DNA of 64,000 nt from Tequatrovirus BCH953P2: the sequence record OZ035785.1; one strand, given 5' to 3'. The position numbers and the translations under genes are program-made. Shown here piece after piece: positions 1,794-56,119 of the stretch. Every line of letters starts with the position of its first letter. Position 1 is the stretch's first letter. The notes under the pieces are model-generated. The model had not been told where the DNA came from and did no database searches. It saw nothing but the letters and a program-made list of their open reading frames with translations.

Positions 1794-2634
1794 AATCAAC
1801 TGCTATTGGATGAATAGCATTAAACTTATGAAATGCTTCTGATTTTTCTTTACGCGAAACACACATGCGAAGAACCTTTAACGGCTCGTCTTCTTCACCC
1901 AACGATTTTCGTTTTTCAATATTAGAAGTTTTCCAACGAGCTTGCTCTGGAAACTCTCTATTGATTTGTTCAAGCGCTCTATTATGTTTAGAATTACTGC
2001 GAATTGAACTGCACCCGCCAGGAGCTTGTGCTTTTCCAGATACAACCAGATATTTGAACAAGGCCAAATGCGGATAACCTTGATTAATTAAATTGAGAAA
2101 TGCATACATATCTTCGCATAAATCAATTTTTCCATACCCAATTTGTTCTGTGGTAAGTTTTCCGAGGTCATACCATGTATTCGTGAATCCGTATGAATTT
2201 TCACGATAATTACCCCAAGATGAAGTAATTTTAAAAATTGGTAGACGAGCATGACCGTGATAATACCCGCAATCCATGGCATCTTCAACGTATTGAATCA
2301 ATTCATAGAACTGTTCACGAGTTAATTGATTAATTTTATCTACACATCGGCGATCATCTCTTTTTCGCATTGAACTCATACGAATAGTAGTATCATCGTC
2401 AATCATCCAGATTCGTTGACCTGCATACATATCAGTAATTGCTTTACGAGTACCGGCAATTCCATTTACATCATCAGGAATAGTTACAATTTTAGCTCTA
2501 GACCCATAGGCATCATAATAAGCTTTTTCTTCGTGTTCACGCACTACAATATGTGGTTCATAATCAGTCGGAAACATATCAAGGGCAGAAACTGCCCCTA
2601 CACGTTGATAGCTTGGAATTACGAATTGAATCAT
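1792..2634 (-). CDS. glycosyltransferase with DxD motif at the beta-gt locus (candidate beta-glucosyl-HMC-alpha-glucosyltransferase)
   Basis: 280 aa; IWMIDDD motif typical of GT-A enzymes; occupies the uvsX-to-42 position where T4 has 351 aa beta-gt; unrelated in sequence to T4 beta-gt. Confidence 0.5.
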   Translation of the reverse strand: MIQFVIPSYQRVGAVSALDMFPTDYEPHIVVREHEEKAYYDAYGSRAKIVTIPDDVNGIAGTRKAITDMYAGQRIWMIDDDTTIRMSSMRKRDDRRCVDKINQLTREQFYELIQYVEDAMDCGYYHGHARLPIFKITSSWGNYRENSYGFTNTWYDLGKLTTEQIGYGKIDLCEDMYAFLNLINQGYPHLALFKYLVVSGKAQAPGGCSSIRSNSKHNRALEQINREFPEQARWKTSNIEKRKSLGEEDEPLKVLRMCVSRKEKSEAFHKFNAIHPIAVD

Positions 2635-3271
2635 TTAAGTGCCTTACATTTGTCAAAATGGTATCTTGTCATATTTGGCCCACGTCCTTTTAGTCCGCAA
2701 TGCGGACATATTTTTTCTATCAAATTATGAGGTTTTCCTTTACGATTTTTAGACATCGTTTCTTTAATTATTTTAGCTTTTTCTGCGCCAAAAATTTCTT
2801 CATAAGTTTTACCAGAATTTTCCTTTGCTCGATTTATAATTCCATATGCCTGCTCATTTTTACCATACATTGGATTACCTTCGCCTTTCATTCTTTTAGA
2901 ATGATCAGGACGCTTGATTCCACGAAAGGCATTTCCGCACTTATATCTTTCTTCTGGAGATAGTTTTTACCGTACATTCCATTTAATTTGCCTGGAAAAC
3001 TTCCTCCCCATGCTTCATTCTTTAAATTATATGAATCCGGACAATTAGCAGCATCTAAACAAGTTAAAATAATTTCTTCAACCTGTCTAAACATTGGTCC
3101 TTCATATAATATTTCTTTATTAAAGGATTTTATTCCATATTTCTTTTTAGCATGTTGCCAAACTACACCCGAACCATCATAATTCGGGTTGTGACCATCA
3201 TGACTTCCTATATACCACTTTTTAGTTTTAGGATGTTTATACTTATAAACATGTGGCACATTTACTTCCAT
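2631..3271 (-). pseudogene. seg-like GIY-YIG homing endonuclease split by a frameshift
   Basis: N-terminal ORF (2888-3271) has VYKYKH...WYIGS GIY-YIG motifs then GKLNGMYGKN; the NUMOD3-like continuation (SPEERYK...GEGNPMYGK) lies in another frame (2631-2891); frames switch near an A5 run around 2962-2968. Confidence 0.6.
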
Positions 3272-4002
3272 TTTCCAGTATAATCCTTTTTAGCAATATG
3301 AGTCTCACCGGTGTTCCACCAATGGTCAACTAAATAAAACTGATTTTCGTACACATGAAGACTTCCAACGTTCCATATAATAGAACCTGCTTTATATTGC
3401 CGCGATGGGTCGCCTGCATTCAAATCAGATACTAATTTATCTAGTACGTATTTTTGCCAAGCATAATCATTACGATAGCCTGCCCAGCAATCATTGCTTC
3501 TCATGCTAACAACCGCATTGACTTTCTTATCACGAATCAGGTACTGTACTGTATTAGTACACATGAAATCTGACATACCATCTTTATTGTAGTCAAATTG
3601 CATGGATGGACGAGTATAAATCATGATACCACGTCGAGAATCAGGATTTTGACCAAGTTCAGCTAAACACATGTCATATTGAGCATAGTTATCTTCTGAC
3701 CAGATAGCCCAACCATAATTCGAGTTAATTTCGCCTTTAGAAGATGCTACCTGCTGCCAAATCTTTGGTGTTTCACCTGGAATATCTTTAACAAACAAGC
3801 TCTTAGATTTATACCATTCAAGTTCGCGCTGAATGTATTCATCATTAAGAGCGCCAAAAATAAACGGTTCATCTGCTACAAATGATGCGCCAATAATTTC
3901 AATAGTTTTAACACCGGTTTTATCAACTACGAAATCTTTTTCTTTTAATGCAAGCCCCAAATGAAGACGGATTTCTTCAACTGTCATAGAGTCACTAATC
4001 AT
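3262..4002 (-). CDS. 42: dCMP hydroxymethylase
   Basis: 246 aa thymidylate-synthase-fold protein at the conserved position downstream of the gt locus. Confidence 0.93.
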   Translation of the reverse strand: MISDSMTVEEIRLHLGLALKEKDFVVDKTGVKTIEIIGASFVADEPFIFGALNDEYIQRELEWYKSKSLFVKDIPGETPKIWQQVASSKGEINSNYGWAIWSEDNYAQYDMCLAELGQNPDSRRGIMIYTRPSMQFDYNKDGMSDFMCTNTVQYLIRDKKVNAVVSMRSNDCWAGYRNDYAWQKYVLDKLVSDLNAGDPSRQYKAGSIIWNVGSLHVYENQFYLVDHWWNTGETHIAKKDYTGKWK

Positions 4003-4009
4003 TTAAACC

Positions 4010-4159
4010 TCAATTGATACATTCATATTTAACTTGTAACAGTAATAAACCCCAACCTAAAATAATAGTTGGAATCATAAGAGGAACCGTTACACTATAG
4101 TATATACTTATTATAATCATCAAGATTAAAAGCAACACTGCTATAATTTTGCTTTTCAT
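4010..4159 (-). CDS. small hydrophobic protein
   Basis: 49 aa ORF MKSKIIAVLLLILMIIISIYY...; start overlaps imm stop (ATGA); not in ORF track (<60 aa). Confidence 0.4.
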   Translation of the reverse strand: MKSKIIAVLLLILMIIISIYYSVTVPLMIPTIILGWGLLLLQVKYECIN

Positions 4160-4407
4160 TCCTTCTCTCTGATGATAATTACCTGATTTGGTTGTGCAGA
4201 CTTTTTAGTTTCACCCGCAATTGACCAAATAAATGTAATAAACCAACCAATAATTGACCAGTTAAACAGTAAAGATGTGAAAAAGATTCCTACTGTCGAT
4301 TTTGACCCACGCATCAAGGCGATAAACCATGGAAGCATGTATATAATAATAGCCAACACACCTGAAACTAAAACCATAAAAATTGAACCTGCTACTAAAG
4401 TTTCCAT
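4156..4407 (-). CDS. imm: superinfection immunity membrane protein Imm
   Basis: 83 aa, two hydrophobic helices, position between 42 and 43. Confidence 0.8.
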   Translation of the reverse strand: METLVAGSIFMVLVSGVLAIIIYMLPWFIALMRGSKSTVGIFFTSLLFNWSIIGWFITFIWSIAGETKKSAQPNQVIIIREKE

Positions 4408-4414
4408 GTTTTCC

Positions 4415-4795
4415 TCACTTAGTCAAATTTTTTACACATGAATTATAAGAATTCACTACATACTCCATCGGAGCATTTTTACCAGTACGCCATTGGTAAT
4501 TATTAGCCCAATTAGCCCAAATTTCGGCGCAGTAGTTTTCAATTTTTTCTTCGCGTGTAATTACATCAGAATTACGATATGCTTGAGCAGATTCATCTGG
4601 ACGAATAGCTTCGTCAAAATTCGCCTGCATTTGTTCGACTGTTTGCTTTGGAGCTTCTTTATAACACTTGACATTAGGATTATAAAATTTGCTTGAACAG
4701 TTTACAATTTTTCCTACATCAGACTGATTTACTACCGGTCCTTGAGCTACACAACCAGTAAGACCTAATGCAATAACCAAAATAGCGATTTTCAT
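4415..4795 (-). CDS. predicted lipoprotein
   Basis: 126 aa; signal peptide with lipobox LGLTGC. Confidence 0.6.
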   Translation of the reverse strand: MKIAILVIALGLTGCVAQGPVVNQSDVGKIVNCSSKFYNPNVKCYKEAPKQTVEQMQANFDEAIRPDESAQAYRNSDVITREEKIENYCAEIWANWANNYQWRTGKNAPMEYVVNSYNSCVKNLTK

Positions 4796-4805
4796 AATAA
4801 TTTCC

Positions 4806-5042
4806 TCAAATGCAAGTAGTAATTACTCCAGTAGTGCTTATGCAGGTATTACCCATTTGCACACCTAAAGATCCATTTGTATTCACATGAAGATTATCAT
4901 CAATTTTAACTGATATTTTACCATTAGTGTGAATAACGGTGCTAGATTCAATCACAGGTTGAGTATCATTTTCAACACTAACAAATGGAACTGCTGCTAA
5001 TGCAACTAAACACACTGCTAAGCAACCATAAACAATTTTCAT
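4806..5042 (-). CDS. small secreted/periplasmic protein
   Basis: Signal-peptide-like N-terminus MKIVYGCLAVCLVALAAVPFVSV; track ORF starts at TTG, likely ATG at 5042 with GGAG upstream. Confidence 0.5.
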   Translation of the reverse strand: MKIVYGCLAVCLVALAAVPFVSVENDTQPVIESSTVIHTNGKISVKIDDNLHVNTNGSLGVQMGNTCISTTGVITTCI

Positions 5043-5078
5043 TTCATTCTCCAAATCCGTATCAGTAGTTGATAGTTG

Positions 5079-5109
5079 TATAGTACCATAGAAGAACAGG
5101 GATGTAAAC
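5079..5109 (-). promoter_or_regulatory. T4-type early promoter within a repeated promoter cassette
   Basis: Minus strand GTTTAC, 18 nt, TACTAT; about 60 bp nearly identical to cassettes at 31787-31850 and 46463-46545. Confidence 0.6.
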
Positions 5110-5191
5110 AGTTTTGTGAAAATTTTTTAGGGAATCCAAAGGGTCCAGAATCATCTCTTTTTCATAAGTATAGATTTATATTACTTGTATG

Positions 5192-5214
5192 AAAAAGGGA
5201 CCTGGAGGTCCCTA
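5192..5214 (-). terminator. intrinsic terminator after gene 43
   Basis: Minus strand GGGACCUCCAGGUCCC stem-loop followed by UUUUU. Confidence 0.6.
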
Positions 5215-5225
5215 GATTTATTCTA

Positions 5226-7922
5226 TCAGCCAAACAGGAAGTCTAACGAAGCTTTTTCTTCATAGTCCATGCCAGCCGATTCACACATACCCGCAAGCGG
5301 TTTAACAAACGATTTTTGGAACAAAGTTGAGTGGTCAATCCAAGATAGTACATCAGAACGAATTTCTTTTGGAAGTTCTGTACCCGACGGCCAAGCAATG
5401 CACTTGTCACCAAATGGATTTCCTTCACGTAATGGAAGAACCATTACTTTATTTCCATCCAAAATTGGAGCTACACCCAGACCACTAACAGCTCGACGAT
5501 AAGTTAGCACACCGCGAATATGGAACGGGCATTTAAATCCTGGCCAACCTTTATCATCATATTTCGCTATATCGTTCGCAGTTTTTACTTCAGCAATAAC
5601 TTTATAGTCGAGTTGACGATATTCTTTCTCGAAGTTCTTGTAATATTCTTGGACAGACTCTTCACCTTCCTGAAGAATACGACGAATACTTTCTTCGAGA
5701 GCTTCTTGTACTGCTTTTGGTGTTGAACTCTGCTGAGTTTCCATACCCATGATTTTTAGATGTGGTTCAGCAAATCGCTTATCTTCCATATCATAAACGT
5801 TCAGAGCATAACGCTTTTTCGCTTTCCAAAATCCACCAACACCCTTTGAACCAAGTGGAGGGCAAGAAATAGCTTCACGGTCCATATGCATCAGATGCTC
5901 GCGGTTATTCATATAATCACATAACTCACGATATGCAACATCAATCATAGGTTCCATCTTTTTCTTACCGAACTGATTCATGAATTCAACTAAATCGTTC
6001 TGCTCTTTGAATCGGTCAAGACCAACTTTTTCAATAACTTTATCTACACAAACATATACCGAATCAGTATCACCCGCGGCAATGAAATCTTCACCATCAG
6101 TTCCACATACTTTATTTAGATATTCATTAATTTTACGAGCAATCCACTGAATACCAACTTGGCCGAAAATTGTGATAGCAGTAGCATTTCGCAAATCATA
6201 GTAACGGAAATGAATATTACCAAGAGCACCATAAAGACTGTTAATAAGAATTTTACGGTTCAGCTGATTTGTGTTAGCAAGTGTAGCTGCTTTTTCACAT
6301 TCCTCAATCAGACTATTGAGAACGGATTCGGTGTAATTCGATAGTTCATTTAAGAAATCATCACTGAACTTAACATATCGTTCAACTTCTGGTTTAGTTG
6401 AACAAGACCCTGCGCCTTTCATAATAATCTTTTTAATAGCTTCGGCATTCATTTCTTCAGCGAACATTTTCTTTTTCCAGTCTTTACGCTGGAAAAATAC
6501 TTTAGCGATTTCCTTTGGAATGATACCTTCTTGATGCTTATCATACATCCATCCATTCGGAGAACAAGAATATTCATCACTCGGTTTAGGAGCTGTTCCT
6601 GCAATATATTCATGAATTGGATGAACTTTAAACTGCCCACGAATAGTCTCAGGACTAATGTTAACCTGACGAATAATGCTCGGATACAGAGACGTCAAGT
6701 CAAAACTCATAATATATCGACGAGCAATTGGTTTAGGTTCAAACACAAATGCACCCGGAAAACTCTGTTTAACGTGCGAACCCTGTTGAGGAATAACCTT
6801 ATGTTCACCTTTCAATGAGTTAAAAATAATAGCATCCCAAGTTTTAATAGGACTCATTACACCAGAAAAAGGCATTTTAGCATAATAAGACATACTTAAA
6901 ACTAGATCGATAAACCCGCGAATTTTATCAATTGCTTGAACTGATTCTACGTCAATGATGTTATAACTAATGTATCGTTGATGATTAGTCTCACGAAGTT
7001 TATTAATAGGACCGTCGTATGGTAATTTACCTTTTTTGGTTTCATGTTGAGCAACTGATTCCAAAGAGAATGACGGCAAATTAGTAAATGCGAATTTCTT
7101 ATACAAATCTAAATAATCAAGAATAGATACGCCATCAATAGAATAAATTTCTTTGCTACCGTACACATTTTGAATTAGTTTAGATTTTACTCGACCGATT
7201 GGAGAGAAACGTTTCATACTGCGTTCACCGAGAACCATTTTAACGCGATTCATGATATACGGAACGTCAAATCCCTCAATATTCCAACCAGTAAAAATAG
7301 CAGGTCGTTTCTGTTCCCAAAGATTGATATATTCCATGAGCATATCACGCTCATTATCGAATGGCATATAAATTACTCGGTCAAGAATTTCTTGAGGAAC
7401 TTCATCACCACCTTCACAGTCAAGCTTAGCAGCTAACTTTGCATCCCATTTTGATACTGAACCGTACATTGAATTCAAAAGGTCGAAAACATAAAAACGG
7501 TCATCAATTGAATCGTAATGAGTGATAGCATCAATTTCATATTCAGCTTTCATTGGGTCAGGAAATTTATCACCAGTAACCTCAATGTCACAGTTAGCTA
7601 CACGAACAAATTTTCGGTCATAAACAATTTCTGAACCATATGTATCACTAATGTAAGCGAGTTTAAAATCGTTCATACCGAGAGCTTCGAGACCGATGTC
7701 TTCCATTCGCTTCATCCAGTCTCGTGCATCTTTCATTGATGGAAATTTTTGAGGAGCGCAATTTTTACCATAAATGTCTTTGTACTTTGACTCTTCCTTA
7801 CAATGCCTAAACATAGTCGGAAGATATTCTACTTCACGAGTACGTTCCTTTCCGTTTTCATCAATATAACGTTCAACAATGTTATTTCCGACTGTTTCGA
7901 TAGAGATATAAAATTCTTTCAT
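5226..7922 (-). CDS. 43: DNA polymerase gp43 (family B)
   Basis: 898 aa; exonuclease and polymerase motifs (SLYPS, DTDS); MKEFYISIETVGNN N-terminus. Confidence 0.97.
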   Translation of the reverse strand: MKEFYISIETVGNNIVERYIDENGKERTREVEYLPTMFRHCKEESKYKDIYGKNCAPQKFPSMKDARDWMKRMEDIGLEALGMNDFKLAYISDTYGSEIVYDRKFVRVANCDIEVTGDKFPDPMKAEYEIDAITHYDSIDDRFYVFDLLNSMYGSVSKWDAKLAAKLDCEGGDEVPQEILDRVIYMPFDNERDMLMEYINLWEQKRPAIFTGWNIEGFDVPYIMNRVKMVLGERSMKRFSPIGRVKSKLIQNVYGSKEIYSIDGVSILDYLDLYKKFAFTNLPSFSLESVAQHETKKGKLPYDGPINKLRETNHQRYISYNIIDVESVQAIDKIRGFIDLVLSMSYYAKMPFSGVMSPIKTWDAIIFNSLKGEHKVIPQQGSHVKQSFPGAFVFEPKPIARRYIMSFDLTSLYPSIIRQVNISPETIRGQFKVHPIHEYIAGTAPKPSDEYSCSPNGWMYDKHQEGIIPKEIAKVFFQRKDWKKKMFAEEMNAEAIKKIIMKGAGSCSTKPEVERYVKFSDDFLNELSNYTESVLNSLIEECEKAATLANTNQLNRKILINSLYGALGNIHFRYYDLRNATAITIFGQVGIQWIARKINEYLNKVCGTDGEDFIAAGDTDSVYVCVDKVIEKVGLDRFKEQNDLVEFMNQFGKKKMEPMIDVAYRELCDYMNNREHLMHMDREAISCPPLGSKGVGGFWKAKKRYALNVYDMEDKRFAEPHLKIMGMETQQSSTPKAVQEALEESIRRILQEGEESVQEYYKNFEKEYRQLDYKVIAEVKTANDIAKYDDKGWPGFKCPFHIRGVLTYRRAVSGLGVAPILDGNKVMVLPLREGNPFGDKCIAWPSGTELPKEIRSDVLSWIDHSTLFQKSFVKPLAGMCESAGMDYEEKASLDFLFG

Positions 7923-26360: not shown

Positions 26361-27363
26361 TTACTTAATTAACTGTAAAGCTTGTTCAAGACGATCCAAG
26401 CGATTAACAGATTCTTCCCAAATCCTTTTAGCCCGCTCATATTCTTTCTGCGCTTTATTAGAAATTTCTAGAACTTCTTTATAAGCTTTTTCTAGTGCAA
26501 TAACTTCTGGACGAATTTCTATCGGTTCAGGTGAATCATCAAGACATTCCATTAGTTCCTCAAGGGTAGTTTCTTCTTTAGGAGTATTCACAATTTCATC
26601 ACATTTTTGTTGGTAAATTTCTTTATCAGTCGGTGAGTACGCGCACTTTACTTCACGAAGACTAATTACAATTTTATATCCTTCCCAACCGCATATATTC
26701 TTAAAAGGATAAGTATGAATATTTTCTACTGTTTCCATACAAAGTAATGCGGTCTCTAATTGACGAGTTATAGTGCTAGCAATTGAGAAAAATTTATTAA
26801 TATTCTTTTGGTTAGTTTCTGGTGTAAAAAATCCATAATTCACAAAAATAGATACTTTATTTTTATCAAGTTCATATTCTTTTATGATAATCATATCAGA
26901 AGCCAAAGGATGAATTTGACGATAATCGCCATAACATAATTTAGAAGCTGATTTTAGAATCTGTCCTTTGAAAAGTCTGAAATTACTAATCCAACGACGA
27001 GTAAAAATATTCTCAGGGTCTTCTTTATTATTAAGATGATAAGAATTAACATCACCGAACCAATTATATCCTACTACATCTTTGGTTCGTTTAATTTCTT
27101 TCCCAAAATTACCAAGAATATCCCGATTAACCAAATATGAAAGAAGACGAGACTCTTTAAAGGTTTTCTTGATAACATCTTTATCTACACGGCTAGAAAT
27201 TTTACGAATTTCATGAATAAATTTAGCAGAAGAAACAATACCTGCATCAACACTATTGAGCCATTGATTGATAATAGAAAGAACGCTATTTTGGCCAAAC
27301 ATCGGTATAGCTTTATCATCAATAACGCTATTGAATGATTTGATATATTCGTTACGAGTCATA
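26361..27363 (-). CDS. hypothetical protein with C-terminal coiled coil
   Basis: Track ORF 26361-27413 trimmed to MTRNEY because an early promoter overlaps the upstream ATG. Confidence 0.5.
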
Positions 27364-30805: not shown

Positions 30806-31774
30806 TTATTTCAGAAGAGTAACCTCAGCGATTTCTTCCCAACCGTTTTTGTCGGTCATAATAAAGTCAGCAAGATAAAGAGCAGTACGCAGTGAAACAT
30901 TGCGTAAACGATTAACATTGACTTTCATCCATGATAATGCTTTATAAGTTTCTTCATCAGAAAGACCGCGCTTTTGCATCATGTCGGTTGAAAGAATAAC
31001 ATCTTCAACCCTGACCATAATTTCTTCATTAGTGTGAACACCCAAATCTAAATAAACTGAGCGGGACACTAATGCTTGTAAATGTGGAGCAAGTTTAGTA
31101 CCACGGTCTAATTCGCGGTCAATGTCAACGTTTGTGATAAAAACAATCGTTCCTTTAAATTCAAACTCACGCTCAATGCCTTTTTCTTCTAAGTAAGAAG
31201 ATGCAGTGCTCCAGCAGACTTTACGGGTCTCTCCAGTGTCCAGAGCAGCTTTTAGAAGATTAAGAATGTCCATATCAGAGAAAACATCCACATCATCAAT
31301 CAAAAGGACAGAATTCTCTTCACGATTATTCCAAAGCTGTTCATAAAGACCAATACCAGAGATTTTACCATTAATGCTTTTATATTCAATGTATCCAATA
31401 TCATTTGCTTTATTTAAAGCTTTATCTAAAGAATGCGTTTTACCAATACCTGCTGCACCAGAGATAATTAATGAACGAATGTTTCCGTTAATAATACCAT
31501 TCGTCATCATTCCCATAACATTAAATCTTTTATTAATGCGGGTTTTCATATCTTCATACGATTCTTTAACTTCTTCAACTTTTACACCATCATATGAAAT
31601 GTCTGATTTGTAAACCCAAACACCGCGACGTTTACCGTCAATTTCAACAAAAACTTTACCATCTCCTTGTGCATCTACCGGAGCATTATCTGGGAACCAT
31701 TCACCTAAGAGCTCAAAAGTTCCAGAGATTTCTTTACCGAAGTAGATACCCTTATTGATAGTTACAGTTTTCAT
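30806..31774 (-). CDS. P-loop NTPase
   Basis: Walker A GAAGIGKT, Walker B LLIDDVD; track start is TTG, likely ATG at 31774. Confidence 0.6.
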   Translation of the reverse strand: MKTVTINKGIYFGKEISGTFELLGEWFPDNAPVDAQGDGKVFVEIDGKRRGVWVYKSDISYDGVKVEEVKESYEDMKTRINKRFNVMGMMTNGIINGNIRSLIISGAAGIGKTHSLDKALNKANDIGYIEYKSINGKISGIGLYEQLWNNREENSVLLIDDVDVFSDMDILNLLKAALDTGETRKVCWSTASSYLEEKGIEREFEFKGTIVFITNVDIDRELDRGTKLAPHLQALVSRSVYLDLGVHTNEEIMVRVEDVILSTDMMQKRGLSDEETYKALSWMKVNVNRLRNVSLRTALYLADFIMTDKNGWEEIAEVTLLK

Positions 31775-31808
31775 TTTATTCTCCAAATCTGTATCAGTTG
31801 ATAGTTGT

Positions 31809-31838
31809 ATAGTACCATAAAGCTTTATGCTTGTAAAC
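31809..31838 (-). promoter_or_regulatory. T4-type early promoter within a repeated promoter cassette
   Basis: Minus strand GTTTAC, 18 nt, TACTAT; cassette near-identical to 5055-5110 and 46463-46545. Confidence 0.6.
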
Positions 31839-31862
31839 CGTTTTGTGAAAAATTTTTGAAAT

Positions 31863-46450: not shown

Positions 46451-46493
46451 TTCATTCTCCAAATTGTTTTCTGTATCAGTAGTTGATAGTTGT

Positions 46494-46523
46494 ATAGTAC
46501 CATGGAAGAACAGGGATGTAAAC
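46494..46523 (-). promoter_or_regulatory. T4-type early promoter within a repeated promoter cassette
   Basis: Minus strand GTTTAC, 18 nt, TACTAT; cassette near-identical to 5055-5110 and 31787-31850. Confidence 0.6.
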
Positions 46524-46655
46524 AGTTTTGTGAAAAAATTTTTTAAAAAGTTTTAGGGAATTCTAGGGTCAGGAGGGACAATTAAAAGGTAGGATAATAT
46601 ATTATAAAGGGTATAAACTAAATGATGCCCAGAGAGGCCCGGAAAGGCCTAGATA

Positions 46656-46684
46656 CCAAAAAGCCCCAACCTTTCGGCTGGGGC
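46656..46684 (-). terminator. intrinsic terminator
   Basis: Minus strand AGCCCCAGCCGAAAGGUUGGGGCU then UUUU; preceded by a second hairpin at 46633-46650. Confidence 0.6.
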
Positions 46685-46692
46685 TAAGAATG

Positions 46693-47166: not shown

Positions 47167-47211
47167 CTTATTTCCTGTTTTAATTCGTGGTTTTAATATA
47201 CTTATTTATAC

Positions 47212-47240
47212 TAAAAAGCCCCAACCTTTCGGTCGGGGCT
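47212..47240 (-). terminator. intrinsic terminator
   Basis: Minus strand AGCCCCGACCGAAAGGUUGGGGCU then UUUUU; near-duplicate of the hairpin at 46661-46684. Confidence 0.6.
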
Positions 47241-47527
47241 AAGCCTTGCGGCAACCTTGTCGGGGTTCCACCTGCTAAGGCAAGTGTTTGTGCGAAACGC
47301 CGGGACTTGAACCCGGTTATTAAGTAGTTGACGCTACTCAATATTTTTAAAAGGCCATATCTCGACCATATCCGAACGTTCCGTCAAAAACGCTACTCGG
47401 CTTACGGCAAAGATATTTCCTCGAATCGATAATTCGGTGCGCCGTTTCTGCTGTGATGTAAGAGGACATCAATAAACGCAAAGATTATTAACGCAATTCC
47501 TTACTCAGGGAACATCAGTCCGACGAC
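47241..47527 (-). ncRNA. candidate structured stable RNA
   Basis: About 290 nt without a credible ORF; contains a tRNA-like T-arm (CCGGG UUCAAGU CCCGG) and ends at a terminator. Confidence 0.3.
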
Positions 47528-54408: not shown

Positions 54409-56119
54409 TAACCTTAATTGGTTTGTTGGTGTTGTTGAAGATAGAATGGACCCATTAAAATTAGGTCGTGTTCGTGTTCGTGTGGTTGGTCTGCATCCAC
54501 CTCAAAGAGCACAAGGTGATGTAATGGGTATTCCAACTGAAAAATTACCATGGATGTCAGTTATTCAACCTATAACTTCTGCAGCAATGTCTGGAATTGG
54601 AGGTTCTGTTACTGGACCGGTAGAAGGAACTAAAGTTTATGGTCATTTTTTAGACAAATGGAAAACTAACGGAATTGTCCTTGGCACGTATGGTGGAATA
54701 GTTCGCGAAAAACCGAATAGACTTGAAGGATTTTCTGACCCAACCGGGCAGTATCCTAGACGTTTAGGAAATGATACTAACGTACTAAACCAAGGCGGAG
54801 AAGTAGGATATGATTCCTCTTCTAATATTATCCAAGATAGTAACCTAGACACCGCAATAAATCCCGATGATAGACCACTATCAGAGATTCCAACCGATGA
54901 TAATCCAAATATGTCAATGGCTGAAATGCTTCGCCGTGATGAAGGATTAAGACTAAAAGTTTATTGGGATACCGAAGGATATCCGACAATTGGTATTGGT
55001 CATCTTATCATGAAGCAGCCAGTTCGTGATATGGCTCAAATTAATAAAGTTTTATCGAAACAAGTTGGTCGTGAAATTACAGGAAATCCAGGTTCTATTA
55101 CAATGGAAGAAGCGGTAACTTTATTTGAACGTGATTTAGCTGATATGCAACGTGACATTAAATCACATTCTAAAGTAGGACCAGTCTGGCAAGCTGTCAA
55201 CCGTTCTCGTCAAATGGCGTTAGAAAATATGGCATTTCAGATGGGTGTTGGCGGTGTAGCTAAATTTAACACAATGTTAACTGCTATGTTAGCAGGAGAT
55301 TGGGAAAAAGCATATAAAGCCGGTCGTGATTCATTGTGGTATCAACAAACAAAAGGCCGTGCATCCCGTGTTACTATGATTATTCTTACGGGAAATTTGG
55401 AATCATATGGTGTTGAAGTGAAAACCCCAGCTAGGTCTCTATCAGCAATGGCTGCTACTGTAGCTAAATCTTCTGACCCTGCTGATCCTCCTATTCCAAA
55501 TGACTCGAGAATTTTATTCAAAGAACCAGTTTCTTCATATAAAGGTGAATATCCTTATGTGCATACAATGGAAACTGAAAGCGGACATATTCAGGAATTT
55601 GATGATACCCCTGGGCAAGAACGATATAGATTAGTTCATCCAACTGGAACTTATGAAGAAGTATCACCGTCAGGAAGAAGAACAAGAAAAACTGTTGATA
55701 ATTTGTATGATATAACCAACGCTGATGGTAATTTTTTGGTAGCCGGTGATAAAAAGACTAACGTCGGTGGTTCAGAAATTTATTATAACATGGATAATCG
55801 TCTTCACCAGATAGATGGAAGCAATACAATATTTGTGCGCGGCGATGAAACTAAGACGGTTGAAGGTAATGGAACTATCCTAGTTAAAGGTAATGTTACC
55901 ATTGTAGTTGAAGGTAATGCTGACATTACAGTTAAAGGAGATGCTACCACTTTAGTTGAAGGAAATCAAACTAATACAGTAAATGGAAATCTTTCTTGGA
56001 AAGTTGCTGGGACAGTTGATTGGGACGTTGGTGGTGATTGGACAGAAAAAATGGCATCTATGAGTTCTATTTCATCTGGTCAATACACAATTGATGGATC
56101 GAGGATTGACATTGGCTAA
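54392..56119 (+). CDS. 5: baseplate hub / tail lysozyme gp5
   Basis: 575 aa; internal lysozyme domain MAEMLRRDEGLRLKVYWDTEGYPTIGIGH; C-terminal VxGxxxxxVxG beta-helix repeats. Confidence 0.95.
   Translation: MEMISNNLNWFVGVVEDRMDPLKLGRVRVRVVGLHPPQRAQGDVMGIPTEKLPWMSVIQPITSAAMSGIGGSVTGPVEGTKVYGHFLDKWKTNGIVLGTYGGIVREKPNRLEGFSDPTGQYPRRLGNDTNVLNQGGEVGYDSSSNIIQDSNLDTAINPDDRPLSEIPTDDNPNMSMAEMLRRDEGLRLKVYWDTEGYPTIGIGHLIMKQPVRDMAQINKVLSKQVGREITGNPGSITMEEAVTLFERDLADMQRDIKSHSKVGPVWQAVNRSRQMALENMAFQMGVGGVAKFNTMLTAMLAGDWEKAYKAGRDSLWYQQTKGRASRVTMIILTGNLESYGVEVKTPARSLSAMAATVAKSSDPADPPIPNDSRILFKEPVSSYKGEYPYVHTMETESGHIQEFDDTPGQERYRLVHPTGTYEEVSPSGRRTRKTVDNLYDITNADGNFLVAGDKKTNVGGSEIYYNMDNRLHQIDGSNTIFVRGDETKTVEGNGTILVKGNVTIVVEGNADITVKGDATTLVEGNQTNTVNGNLSWKVAGTVDWDVGGDWTEKMASMSSISSGQYTIDGSRIDIG

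What the first reader, a model, noticed from the sequence alone, without database searches (positions are those of the whole stretch)
4415..5110. Lipoprotein plus small secreted protein directly beside imm, behind a repeated early-promoter cassette
Between imm and gene 43 lie a predicted lipoprotein (lipobox LGLTGC) and a small signal-peptide protein, driven by an early promoter cassette that recurs nearly verbatim at two other loci. Imm itself is a membrane superinfection-immunity factor, and phage lipoproteins in other systems block receptor or injection steps. Envelope-targeted proteins clustered with imm suggest an expanded superinfection-exclusion or envelope-defence module.
Basis: partly seen in the sequence, partly recalled or inferred. 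Interest (0 to 1): 0.55.

Follow-up and report, generated by a model that had tools for sequence, protein, structure and literature searches.

The report
Lipoprotein partner gene beside T4 imm
This is the long-annotated but functionally unknown imm.1 region of a T4-like phage, and its lipoprotein gene stays next to the superinfection-immunity gene imm in most T4-like lineages, which makes it a testable, unproven candidate for a further exclusion factor.

Summary
The window is a Tequatrovirus (T2/T6-like, 99% to phage e11/2). On the minus strand, after gene 43, the order is: a terminator stem-loop, a T4 early promoter, ORF78, imm.1, imm, ORF49 and gene 42.

- **ORF78** is a 78-aa protein with a Sec-type N-terminus.
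- **imm.1** is a 126-aa lipoprotein (lipobox LTGC, Pfam DUF5481).
- **ORF49** is a 49-aa two-helix membrane protein.

The "promoter cassette" is the ordinary T4 early promoter or PeSL motif. It has 9 copies in the window. The two closest copies drive unrelated genes that show no envelope-family match.

Imm.1 is a known ORF of unknown function and is dispensable in T4 CRISPRi and Tn-seq screens. What I add is comparative. Imm.1-family lipoproteins lie beside imm in 11 of 15 T4-like lineages examined. This holds in both gene orders and at three genomic positions; in RB69 the pair sits next to spackle. Four lineages keep the lipoprotein without an adjacent imm.

ORF78 is a Tequatrovirus-only accessory gene. 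It is absent from T4 and evolves about 30-fold faster than imm.1 at nonsynonymous sites. No fold or family match suggests a mechanism.

The exclusion-module idea is partly supported, by linkage only.

The parts
5196..5213 (-). Intrinsic terminator stem-loop of gene 43 (AGGGACCTCCAGGTCCCT followed by TTTTTC). It is the stem-loop half of a PeSL-type cassette.
   Evidence: 7-bp stem with 5 GC pairs. It is identical in T4 apart from one G just 5' of the stem.
5080..5108 (-). T4 early (sigma-70 type) promoter: -35 TTTACA, 17-nt spacer, extended TG, -10 TACTAT. An A/T-rich tract lies upstream at about 5110-5128.
   Evidence: It matches the T4/PST PeSL promoter consensus TTTACW-N17-TAYWAT (PMC4122927). 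It is one of 9 window copies of the pattern.
5043..5079 (-). Shared 5' leader with Shine-Dalgarno GGAG (5049-5052). The same leader precedes genes at about 31.76 kb and 46.46 kb, and precedes imm.1 directly in T4.
4806..5042 (-). ORF78: a 78-aa accessory protein with an N-terminal Sec-type signal and a beta-prone mature part of about 60 aa. phrog_4189, no Pfam match. Found only in Tequatrovirus and absent from T4.
   Evidence: dN/dS is about 0.3 and dS about 0.3, so it is a real gene.
4415..4795 (-). imm.1: a 126-aa lipoprotein. Lipobox LTGC with Cys15; Val at +2, so predicted to sort to the outer membrane. Four further cysteines. Pfam DUF5481, phrog_1754.
4156..4407 (-). imm: the 83-aa inner-membrane superinfection immunity protein.
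   Evidence: PF14373, E = 7.7e-16; phrog_1039; 98-100% identical to T4 Imm.
4010..4159 (-). ORF49: a 49-aa protein with two hydrophobic helices. Its start overlaps the imm stop (ATGA). phrog_3610. It is not annotated in the T4 RefSeq record but is conserved there.
   Evidence: Homologues follow imm in L025 and follow the lipoprotein locus in Winklervirus X20 and Kanagawavirus PEi20.
46470..46542 (-). Near-verbatim copy (95%) of the promoter cassette. It drives an 87-aa protein of unknown function (phrog_2678).
31764..31857 (-). Second copy of the cassette (promoter 71%, leader and RBS 91%). It drives a 322-aa protein of unknown function with weak clamp-loader-like matches (phrog_1250).

Best explanation
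**Shown.** The region is the immediate-early envelope operon of a T-even phage. The gene 43 terminator is followed by a standard T4 early promoter with a shared leader. That promoter is positioned to transcribe ORF78, imm.1, imm, ORF49 and then gene 42.
- ORF78 is an exported small accessory protein.
- Imm.1 carries a canonical lipobox. [quoted passage not shown]
- The Imm.1 model has a low-confidence tether of about 35 residues that carries the family's most conserved motif (C-x2-4-QG-x-VV-x-x-S-x-VGK, then YNPNVK). This is followed by a helical domain whose last two long helices carry the nearly invariant Cys89 and Cys120.
- Imm.1 is under strong purifying selection.

**Inferred.** Imm.1 is the usual evolutionary companion of Imm. 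It most likely acts in the periplasm, within the first minutes of infection, as a further layer of the barrier that Imm (inner membrane) and Spackle (periplasm) build against secondarily adsorbing T-even phages. [quoted passage not shown] Its target should be conserved, such as incoming tail-tip or DNA-conduit components or a host envelope structure, rather than a variable receptor. ORF78 and ORF49 are accessory members of the same early envelope set, with no assignable role.
For: - **Anatomy:**
- **Family breadth:** Imm.1 of Tequatrovirus and Mosigvirus, and the lipoproteins flanking imm in Gaprivervirus, Dhakavirus and Jiaodavirus, all hit phrog_1754 (E = 3e-44 to 1.9e-15). Lipoproteins sit at the same place in Moonvirus and Muldoonvirus; the Muldoon protein also matched the family profile.
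- **Adjacency to imm in 11 of 15 lineages:** the lipoprotein is upstream of imm in Tequatrovirus, Mosigvirus, Jiaodavirus, Moonvirus, Muldoonvirus and three metagenomic lineages. It is downstream in Gaprivervirus, Dhakavirus and one metagenomic lineage. There are 4-bp overlaps in Muldoon and in the P0035 lineage.
- **The pair moves as a unit:** RB69 reads 61.4 | imm.1 | imm | sp. L025 reads frd.3 | imm.1-like | imm | ORF49-like.
- **Counts in cultured phages:** 656 + 127 + 148 records carry the lipoprotein family. By comparison, 1001 records match T4 Imm, and some of those are not T4-like phages.
- **Exported in every member:** 9 of 10 aligned representatives keep the lipid Cys. The exception has an ordinary signal peptide (AHA|S).
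- **Selection:** imm.1 dN/dS is 0.02-0.12.
- **Timing:** the early promoter fits the known rapid onset of immunity (background in PMC6832632 and PMC7677548).
- **Dispensability:** imm.1 is non-essential in the laboratory, as is imm in Tn-seq.
Against: - There are no functional data. All support is guilt by association.
- Gene order is generally conserved in T4-like phages. Adjacency at the 43-42 locus may therefore partly reflect inheritance, with the lipoprotein anchored 'just after gene 43'.
- Kanagawavirus, Winklervirus, Karamvirus and contig L018 keep the lipoprotein without an adjacent imm. Enterobacter phages carrying the lipoprotein do not appear among the main Imm hits.
- Imm works in many phages that lack the lipoprotein. 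From my recollection of Lu & Henning 1989 (not checked here), plasmid-borne imm alone excludes T4.
- CRISPRi knockdown of imm.1 had no fitness effect while imm did. The imm effect could be polar on gene 42.
- The structure models are low confidence overall (pLDDT 64-66) and gave no informative fold match.
Confidence: 0.4

Rival explanations
1. Imm.1 is an independent early envelope protein whose job is unrelated to Imm. Candidate roles include outer-membrane or peptidoglycan stabilisation, countering a host envelope-associated defence or colicin-like attack, and tuning lysis or lysis inhibition. On this view it sits next to imm only because both are small early genes in the ancestral slot downstream of gene 43.
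For: - The lipoprotein occurs without an adjacent imm in four lineages, always right after gene 43.
- In X20 and PEi20 it keeps ORF49-like nearby but not imm.
- Imm is widespread without it.
- imm.1 knockdown or insertion has no effect, while imm knockdown does.
Against: - The pair relocated together twice, to the sp locus in RB69 and to frd.3 in L025.
- Adjacency survived an inversion of gene order.
- Start and stop codons overlap in two lineages.
Confidence: 0.35
2. Imm.1 is an Llp/Cor-type exclusion lipoprotein. It would bind the phage's own outer-membrane receptor from the periplasmic side and inactivate it.
For: It is an early-expressed, small, cysteine-containing lipoprotein predicted to reach the outer membrane. 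This resembles T5 Llp as described in PMC9586334, which I saw only as a listed title and abstract.
Against: - Imm.1 is at least 95% identical in about 500 Tequatrovirus records. From general knowledge, those phages use different receptors (OmpC/LPS, FadL, Tsx, OmpA).
- T4 exclusion is known not to block adsorption (PMC6832632).
- A PDB profile search returned no phage exclusion lipoprotein, only signal-peptide matches.
Confidence: 0.06
3. ORF78 is an exported accessory ORFan carried in and out by recombination at the promoter and leader. It has a strain-specific role unrelated to superinfection exclusion, or only a marginal role.
For: - It is absent from T4 through an exact 247-bp indel bounded by ATGAAAAT.
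- It is present in 325 records, against about 500 Tequatrovirus records that carry imm.1.
- It is restricted to Tequatrovirus.
- Its dN is about 0.1, against 0.003-0.007 for imm.1.
- Its signal peptide tolerates 7-aa repeat expansions.
- It has no family, PDB or defence-library match.
Against: - dN/dS of about 0.3 shows it is maintained by selection.
- Wherever it occurs, it is the first gene of the imm operon.
Confidence: 0.5

Closest known systems
T4 gene imm.1 (NP_049661; Pfam DUF5481 / PF17578; phrog_1754)
   Same: It is the orthologue: 98% amino-acid identity, the same position between genes 43 and imm, and the same promoter and leader.
   Different: In T4 the promoter leader runs directly into imm.1. 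Here ORF78 is interposed. T4 has LAGC rather than LTGC and a 125-aa product. Its function is unknown in the literature I could search, and the RefSeq product name 'iduronate sulfatase' has no support.
T4 Imm and Spackle (the two recognised T4 superinfection-exclusion proteins)
   Same: All are early, small and envelope-located. Imm is the adjacent gene, and in RB69 imm.1, imm and sp are contiguous. Background: PMC7677548 and PMC6832632.
   Different: Imm.1 is a lipoprotein, not an integral membrane protein like Imm and not a soluble lysozyme inhibitor like Spackle. There is no sequence relation: Imm.1 has no PF14373 hit, and PDB profile searches with the Imm.1 and ORF78 alignments returned no Spackle entry. 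No phenotype is known.
T5 Llp / phi80 Cor-type exclusion lipoproteins
   Same: Phage-encoded, early, small lipoproteins destined for the outer membrane.
   Different: No detectable sequence or fold relation. Conservation across phages that use different receptors argues against receptor masking.
PeSL cassettes (promoter-early stem-loops) of T4-type phages (Arbiol 2010, PMC2839356; Comeau 2014, PMC4122927)
   Same: A terminator stem-loop followed by a conserved early promoter that matches TTTACW-N17-TAYWAT, repeated through the genome and lying next to a gene indel between close relatives.
   Different: The ORF78 indel is bounded by an 8-bp ATGAAAAT repeat at the two start codons, not by two PeSL copies.

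Membership tests
Imm.1 / DUF5481 (PF17578), phrog_1754 | Profile match above the curated threshold | tested here: met
   PF17578: 237.6 bits against a cut-off of 27, E = 1.7e-71. phrog_1754: E = 3e-44.
Imm.1 / DUF5481 (PF17578), phrog_1754 | N-terminal lipoprotein signal peptide with a lipobox cysteine | tested here: met
   LTGC at residues 12-15. The Cys is kept in 9 of 10 diverse members. LipoP and SignalP were not available.
Bacterial lipoprotein sorted to the outer membrane (Lol pathway, +2 rule) | No Asp at position +2 after the lipid cysteine | tested here: met
   The window protein has C-V-A. Other members have G, A, Q or V at +2. Actual localisation cannot be tested here.
Phage superinfection-exclusion lipoproteins (Llp/Cor type) | Sequence or fold homology to a characterised member | tested here: not met
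Phage superinfection-exclusion lipoproteins (Llp/Cor type) | Binds and inactivates the phage receptor and gives an exclusion phenotype | not testable with these tools
   Needs expression and plating or binding assays. At least 95% identity across Tequatrovirus argues indirectly against receptor specificity.
Imm-linked module (conserved gene pair) | Adjacency to imm is kept across lineages and through rearrangements | tested here: inconclusive
   Adjacent in 11 of 15 lineages, in both orders and at three genomic locations. Not adjacent in four lineages.
PeSL / T4 early promoter cassette | A stem-loop terminator followed by an early promoter matching TTTACW-N17-TAYWAT, repeated in the genome | tested here: met
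   (9 copies against 0.02 expected).
Sec signal-peptide protein (ORF78) | Positive n-region, hydrophobic h-region and a small-x-small cleavage site | tested here: inconclusive
   MK, then a 13-15 residue hydrophobic core (KD15 = 2.77), then a conserved A-L-A. This is heuristic only. An uncleaved signal anchor is not excluded. In the HY01-type allele a repeat expansion creates an LAAC lipobox, and UniRef names that cluster 'Lipoprotein'.
gp5-type triple beta-helix repeat (ORF78 mature part) | Significant similarity to the VxGxxxxx octad repeats of the central spike | tested here: not met
   Smith-Waterman against the window's gp5 gives p of about 0.05 relative to shuffles. hhalign probability is 1.4%. 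The PDB hit to a central spike has E = 4.6. Only a weak lag-8/16 self-similarity is seen.

The most novel reading that the evidence does not exclude
Imm.1 (outer-membrane lipoprotein), Imm (inner membrane) and possibly ORF49 form a trans-envelope exclusion apparatus. It would intercept the tail-tip or DNA conduit of incoming T-even phages between the two membranes. This would explain how Imm diverts superinfecting DNA into the periplasm. ORF78 would be a fast-evolving periplasmic add-on aimed at variable competitor components.
Probability: 0.15. Interest if true: 0.7.

Novelty: new member of a known kind. Interest (0 to 1): 0.4.

Why it matters
How T4 Imm stops DNA entry has been unclear for about fifty years, and only imm and sp are recognised as T-even exclusion genes (PMC6832632, PMC7677548). 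A conserved periplasm-facing lipoprotein that usually travels with imm is a concrete, cheap-to-test candidate for a missing component of that barrier. If it turns out to be unrelated, the result still assigns a cellular address and an evolutionary profile to three unnamed early genes found in hundreds of therapeutic-type coliphages.

Full report
**What the window is.** The 1.2-kb stretch 4000-5230 is 98-99% identical to hundreds of Tequatrovirus genomes; the best match is phage e11/2. The neighbouring beta-glucosyl-HMC-alpha-glucosyltransferase marks the window as T2/T6-like. All relevant genes lie on the minus strand.

**Anatomy.**
- Gene 43 ends at 5226.
- Its terminator stem-loop lies at 5213-5196.
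- An early promoter lies at 5108-5080: TTTACA, a 17-nt spacer, an extended TG, then TACTAT. An A/T-rich tract lies upstream of it.
- A 37-nt leader carries the ribosome-binding site GGAG.
- Four short genes follow, separated by at most 11 bp or overlapping, before gene 42 (3262-4002):
  - ORF78 (4806-5042)
  - imm.1 (4415-4795)
  - imm (4156-4407)
  - ORF49 (4010-4159), whose ATG overlaps the imm stop codon
- The ORF listing starts ORF78 at a TTG (5054). The ATG at 5042 is the one served by the ribosome-binding site, and it is the position where imm.1 starts in T4.

**Checking the observation.**
The lipobox is LTGC, Cys15 is the lipid cysteine, and Val at +2 predicts Lol sorting to the outer membrane. 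Four more cysteines are present.
- Imm.1 matches Pfam DUF5481 (E = 1.7e-71) and phrog_1754.
- ORF78 begins MKIVYGCLAVCLVALAAVPF, a short positive n-region and a strong hydrophobic core, and keeps a conserved A-L-A site in all alleles. I could not run SignalP, so 'cleaved signal peptide' remains a heuristic call.
- The promoter cassette 5056-5128 recurs at 46470-46542 (95%) and at 31785-31857 (71%, with the leader 91% identical).

**What the cassette is.**
- It is the ordinary T4 early promoter. GTTTAC-N15-TGGTACTATA with up to 2 mismatches occurs nine times in the window, all on the minus strand, against 0.02 expected.
- Together with the preceding stem-loop it fits the PeSL composite motif of T4-type phages. 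The published T4/PST promoter consensus is TTTACW-N17-TAYWAT (PMC4122927; PMC2839356).
- The two closest copies drive an 87-aa protein and a 322-aa protein with weak clamp-loader-like matches. Both have unknown function and neither shows an envelope-family match.
- The cassette therefore indicates early timing and recombination potential. It does not indicate a shared function.

**Comparison with T4.**
- T4 has the same terminator, promoter and leader, running directly into imm.1.
- Relative to T4, the window carries an exact 247-bp extra segment, which is ORF78 plus its spacer. The segment is bounded by the 8-bp repeat ATGAAAAT at the two start codons.
- ORF49 is present in T4 DNA at 98% identity but is not annotated in the RefSeq record.
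- The RefSeq product name for T4 imm.1, 'iduronate sulfatase', has no support from Pfam.

**ORF78.**
- It occurs in 325 phage records. About 500 records carry the Tequatrovirus-type imm.1.
- Wherever I looked it occupies this position, and profile-guided scans of viral contigs found it nowhere else.
- There are two main allele classes, about 82-85% identical in protein.
- Against the second class, dN is about 0.1 and dN/dS about 0.3. In the same phage pairs imm.1 has dN of 0.003-0.007.
- It is therefore a real, selected gene that evolves roughly 30-fold faster than imm.1 at nonsynonymous sites.
- Its hydrophobic N-terminus carries 7-aa (21-bp) repeat expansions in some alleles. One expansion creates an LAAC lipobox, and UniRef names that cluster 'Lipoprotein'.
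- It has no Pfam, NCBIfam, PADLOC or PDB match.
- A weak octad periodicity and a marginal alignment to the gp5 beta-helix are not significant.

**Imm.1: family and structure.**
- The family is narrow. An exhaustive phmmer search of 1.84 billion representatives returned six clusters.
- phrog_1754 also covers the lipoproteins flanking imm in Gaprivervirus, Dhakavirus and Jiaodavirus (E = 3e-47, 4e-52 and 1.9e-15).
- Lipoproteins sit at the same place in Moonvirus and Muldoonvirus. The Muldoon protein also matched the family profile.
- Tblastn with the Gaprivervirus protein also reaches lipoproteins just downstream of gene 43 in Kanagawavirus, Winklervirus and Karamvirus.
- Shared features are:
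  - the lipobox Cys; one member instead has an ordinary AHA|S signal peptide;
  - a conserved post-cysteine motif, QG-x-VV-x-x-S-x-VGK;
  - an aromatic motif, YNPNVK or GTGLxY;
  - two nearly invariant cysteines, Cys89 and Cys120 in window numbering.
- Cys33 and Cys44 appear and disappear together across members, as expected for a disulfide.
- AlphaFold gives a confident C-terminal helical hairpin (pLDDT about 90), helices at 53-75, and a low-confidence first 50 residues.
- No informative fold match was found.
- The remembered resemblance of the N-terminal motif to SlyB did not hold up against a control lipoprotein.

**Linkage with imm.**
- Imm is adjacent to the lipoprotein gene in 11 of the 15 lineages I examined.
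- The lipoprotein lies upstream of imm in:
  - Tequatrovirus;
  - Mosigvirus (RB69);
  - Jiaodavirus;
  - Moonvirus;
  - Muldoonvirus, with a 4-bp overlap;
  - three metagenomic lineages.
- The lipoprotein lies downstream of imm in:
  - Gaprivervirus;
  - Dhakavirus;
  - one metagenomic lineage, with a 4-bp overlap.
- In RB69 the pair has left the 43-42 locus and lies between 61.4 and sp. There imm.1, imm and spackle are contiguous.
- In contig L025 the trio imm.1-like, imm and ORF49-like follows frd.3.
- Co-relocation, survival through an order inversion, and overlapping start and stop codons all argue for selection on linkage.

**Evidence against an obligate pair.**
- Kanagawavirus (CIP9, PEi20) and Winklervirus (X20) read 43 | lipoprotein | arabinose-5-phosphate isomerase, with no imm in the locus. 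X20 and PEi20 then carry a 47-aa ORF49-like gene.
- Karamvirus VPA32 and contig L018 also lack an adjacent imm.
- Imm itself occurs in about 1,850 phage records, including siphoviruses and mycobacteriophages that have no such lipoprotein.

**Experimental knowledge.**
- I found no functional study of imm.1.
- In CRISPRi-ART tables T4 imm.1 is listed as 'Unknown' and 'Not Fit' (score -0.77, p = 0.98). imm is listed as 'Fit' (1.40, p = 0.02) (PMC11879866 supplements).
- In HIDEN-SEQ Tn-seq, 31 of 31 sites in imm.1 and 20 of 20 in imm tolerate insertion. Both are scored non-essential (bioRxiv 10.1101/2025.11.20.689424).
- Reviews name only imm and sp as T4 exclusion genes and describe Imm's mechanism as poorly understood (PMC6832632; PMC7677548).

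**Interpretation.**
- The anatomy is secure: this is an immediate-early operon of four envelope-targeted proteins.
- The most likely role for Imm.1 is as a periplasm-facing, outer-membrane-tethered companion to Imm. It would help protect the already infected cell against secondary adsorption. I put this at about 0.4.
- Almost as likely (0.35) is an independent envelope function, with adjacency explained by ancestry.
- A receptor-masking role of the Llp type is unlikely. Imm.1 is nearly invariant across Tequatroviruses, and T4 exclusion does not block adsorption.
- ORF78 is best treated as a fast-evolving accessory exported ORFan of unknown role.

**Verdict.** The genes and the promoter are long annotated and ordinary for a T-even phage. 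What this work adds is a comparative argument, with explicit exceptions, that imm.1 belongs functionally with imm. Interest is moderate and the hypothesis is cheap to test.

Noticed in passing
window 4010-4159 (-): ORF49 is a 49-aa protein with two hydrophobic helices, and its ATG overlaps the imm stop. It is unannotated in the T4 RefSeq record although the T4 DNA is 98% identical. Homologues (motif PVMIPT..W..LQ.K..C.N) follow imm in metagenomic contig L025. They also follow the lipoprotein locus in Serratia phage X20 and Edwardsiella phage PEi20, which have no imm there.
   Followed up: partly
window 4975-5042 (-); alleles in L005, L026, P0008, P0013, P0015: The hydrophobic N-terminus of ORF78 carries 7-aa (21-bp) tandem repeat expansions (CLVALAA units) in some phages. 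One allele thereby gains a canonical LAAC lipobox, so the same gene may be a secreted protein in some phages and a lipoprotein in others.
   Followed up: partly
window 2631-3271 (-): Two abutting ORFs (127 aa and 86 aa) between gene 42 and the glucosyltransferase match homing-endonuclease PHROGs (phrog_314, E = 3.9e-20; phrog_655, E = 5.8e-4). They look like a split or decayed endonuclease. Phage e11/2 has gene 42 directly next to the glucosyltransferase, so this appears to be an insertion in the window's phage.
   Followed up: partly
L001 (T4 NC_000866) 26636-27013: RefSeq names T4 imm.1 'iduronate sulfatase', and many GenBank records call Imm.1 'immunity protein'. Neither name has support from Pfam or from any experiment I could find. 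PMC5885020 also states that Imm.1 is absent from the RB69 group, whereas RB69 has a 33%-identical imm.1.
   Followed up: yes
window 46653-46688 and 47208-47243: Two 92%-identical GC-rich stem-loop terminator-like elements (AAAAAGCCCCAACCTTTCGGCTGGGGCTAAG) lie 555 bp apart, just upstream of the near-verbatim promoter copy. They may be further PeSL-type stem-loops.
   Followed up: no
L029 (Shigella phage CT01) 907-1446: In CT01 only residues 28-64 of ORF78 are recognisable. The annotated CDS runs from that remnant into imm.1 as a single 179-aa product, suggesting decay or fusion of ORF78 in that phage.
   Followed up: no
L015 (Serratia phage Muldoon) 395-799: Muldoon has a 134-aa protein with a classical signal peptide (…TPAAFA|S) two genes upstream of its lipoprotein-imm pair. 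It is unrelated in sequence to ORF78 but sits in a comparable position, upstream in the same gene cluster between gene 43 and imm.
   Followed up: no
window 55835-56002 (+): Six 24-nt tandem repeats encode the VxGxxxxx octads of the gp5 central-spike beta-helix. This is a known feature, and it was used here as the comparison for ORF78.
   Followed up: yes
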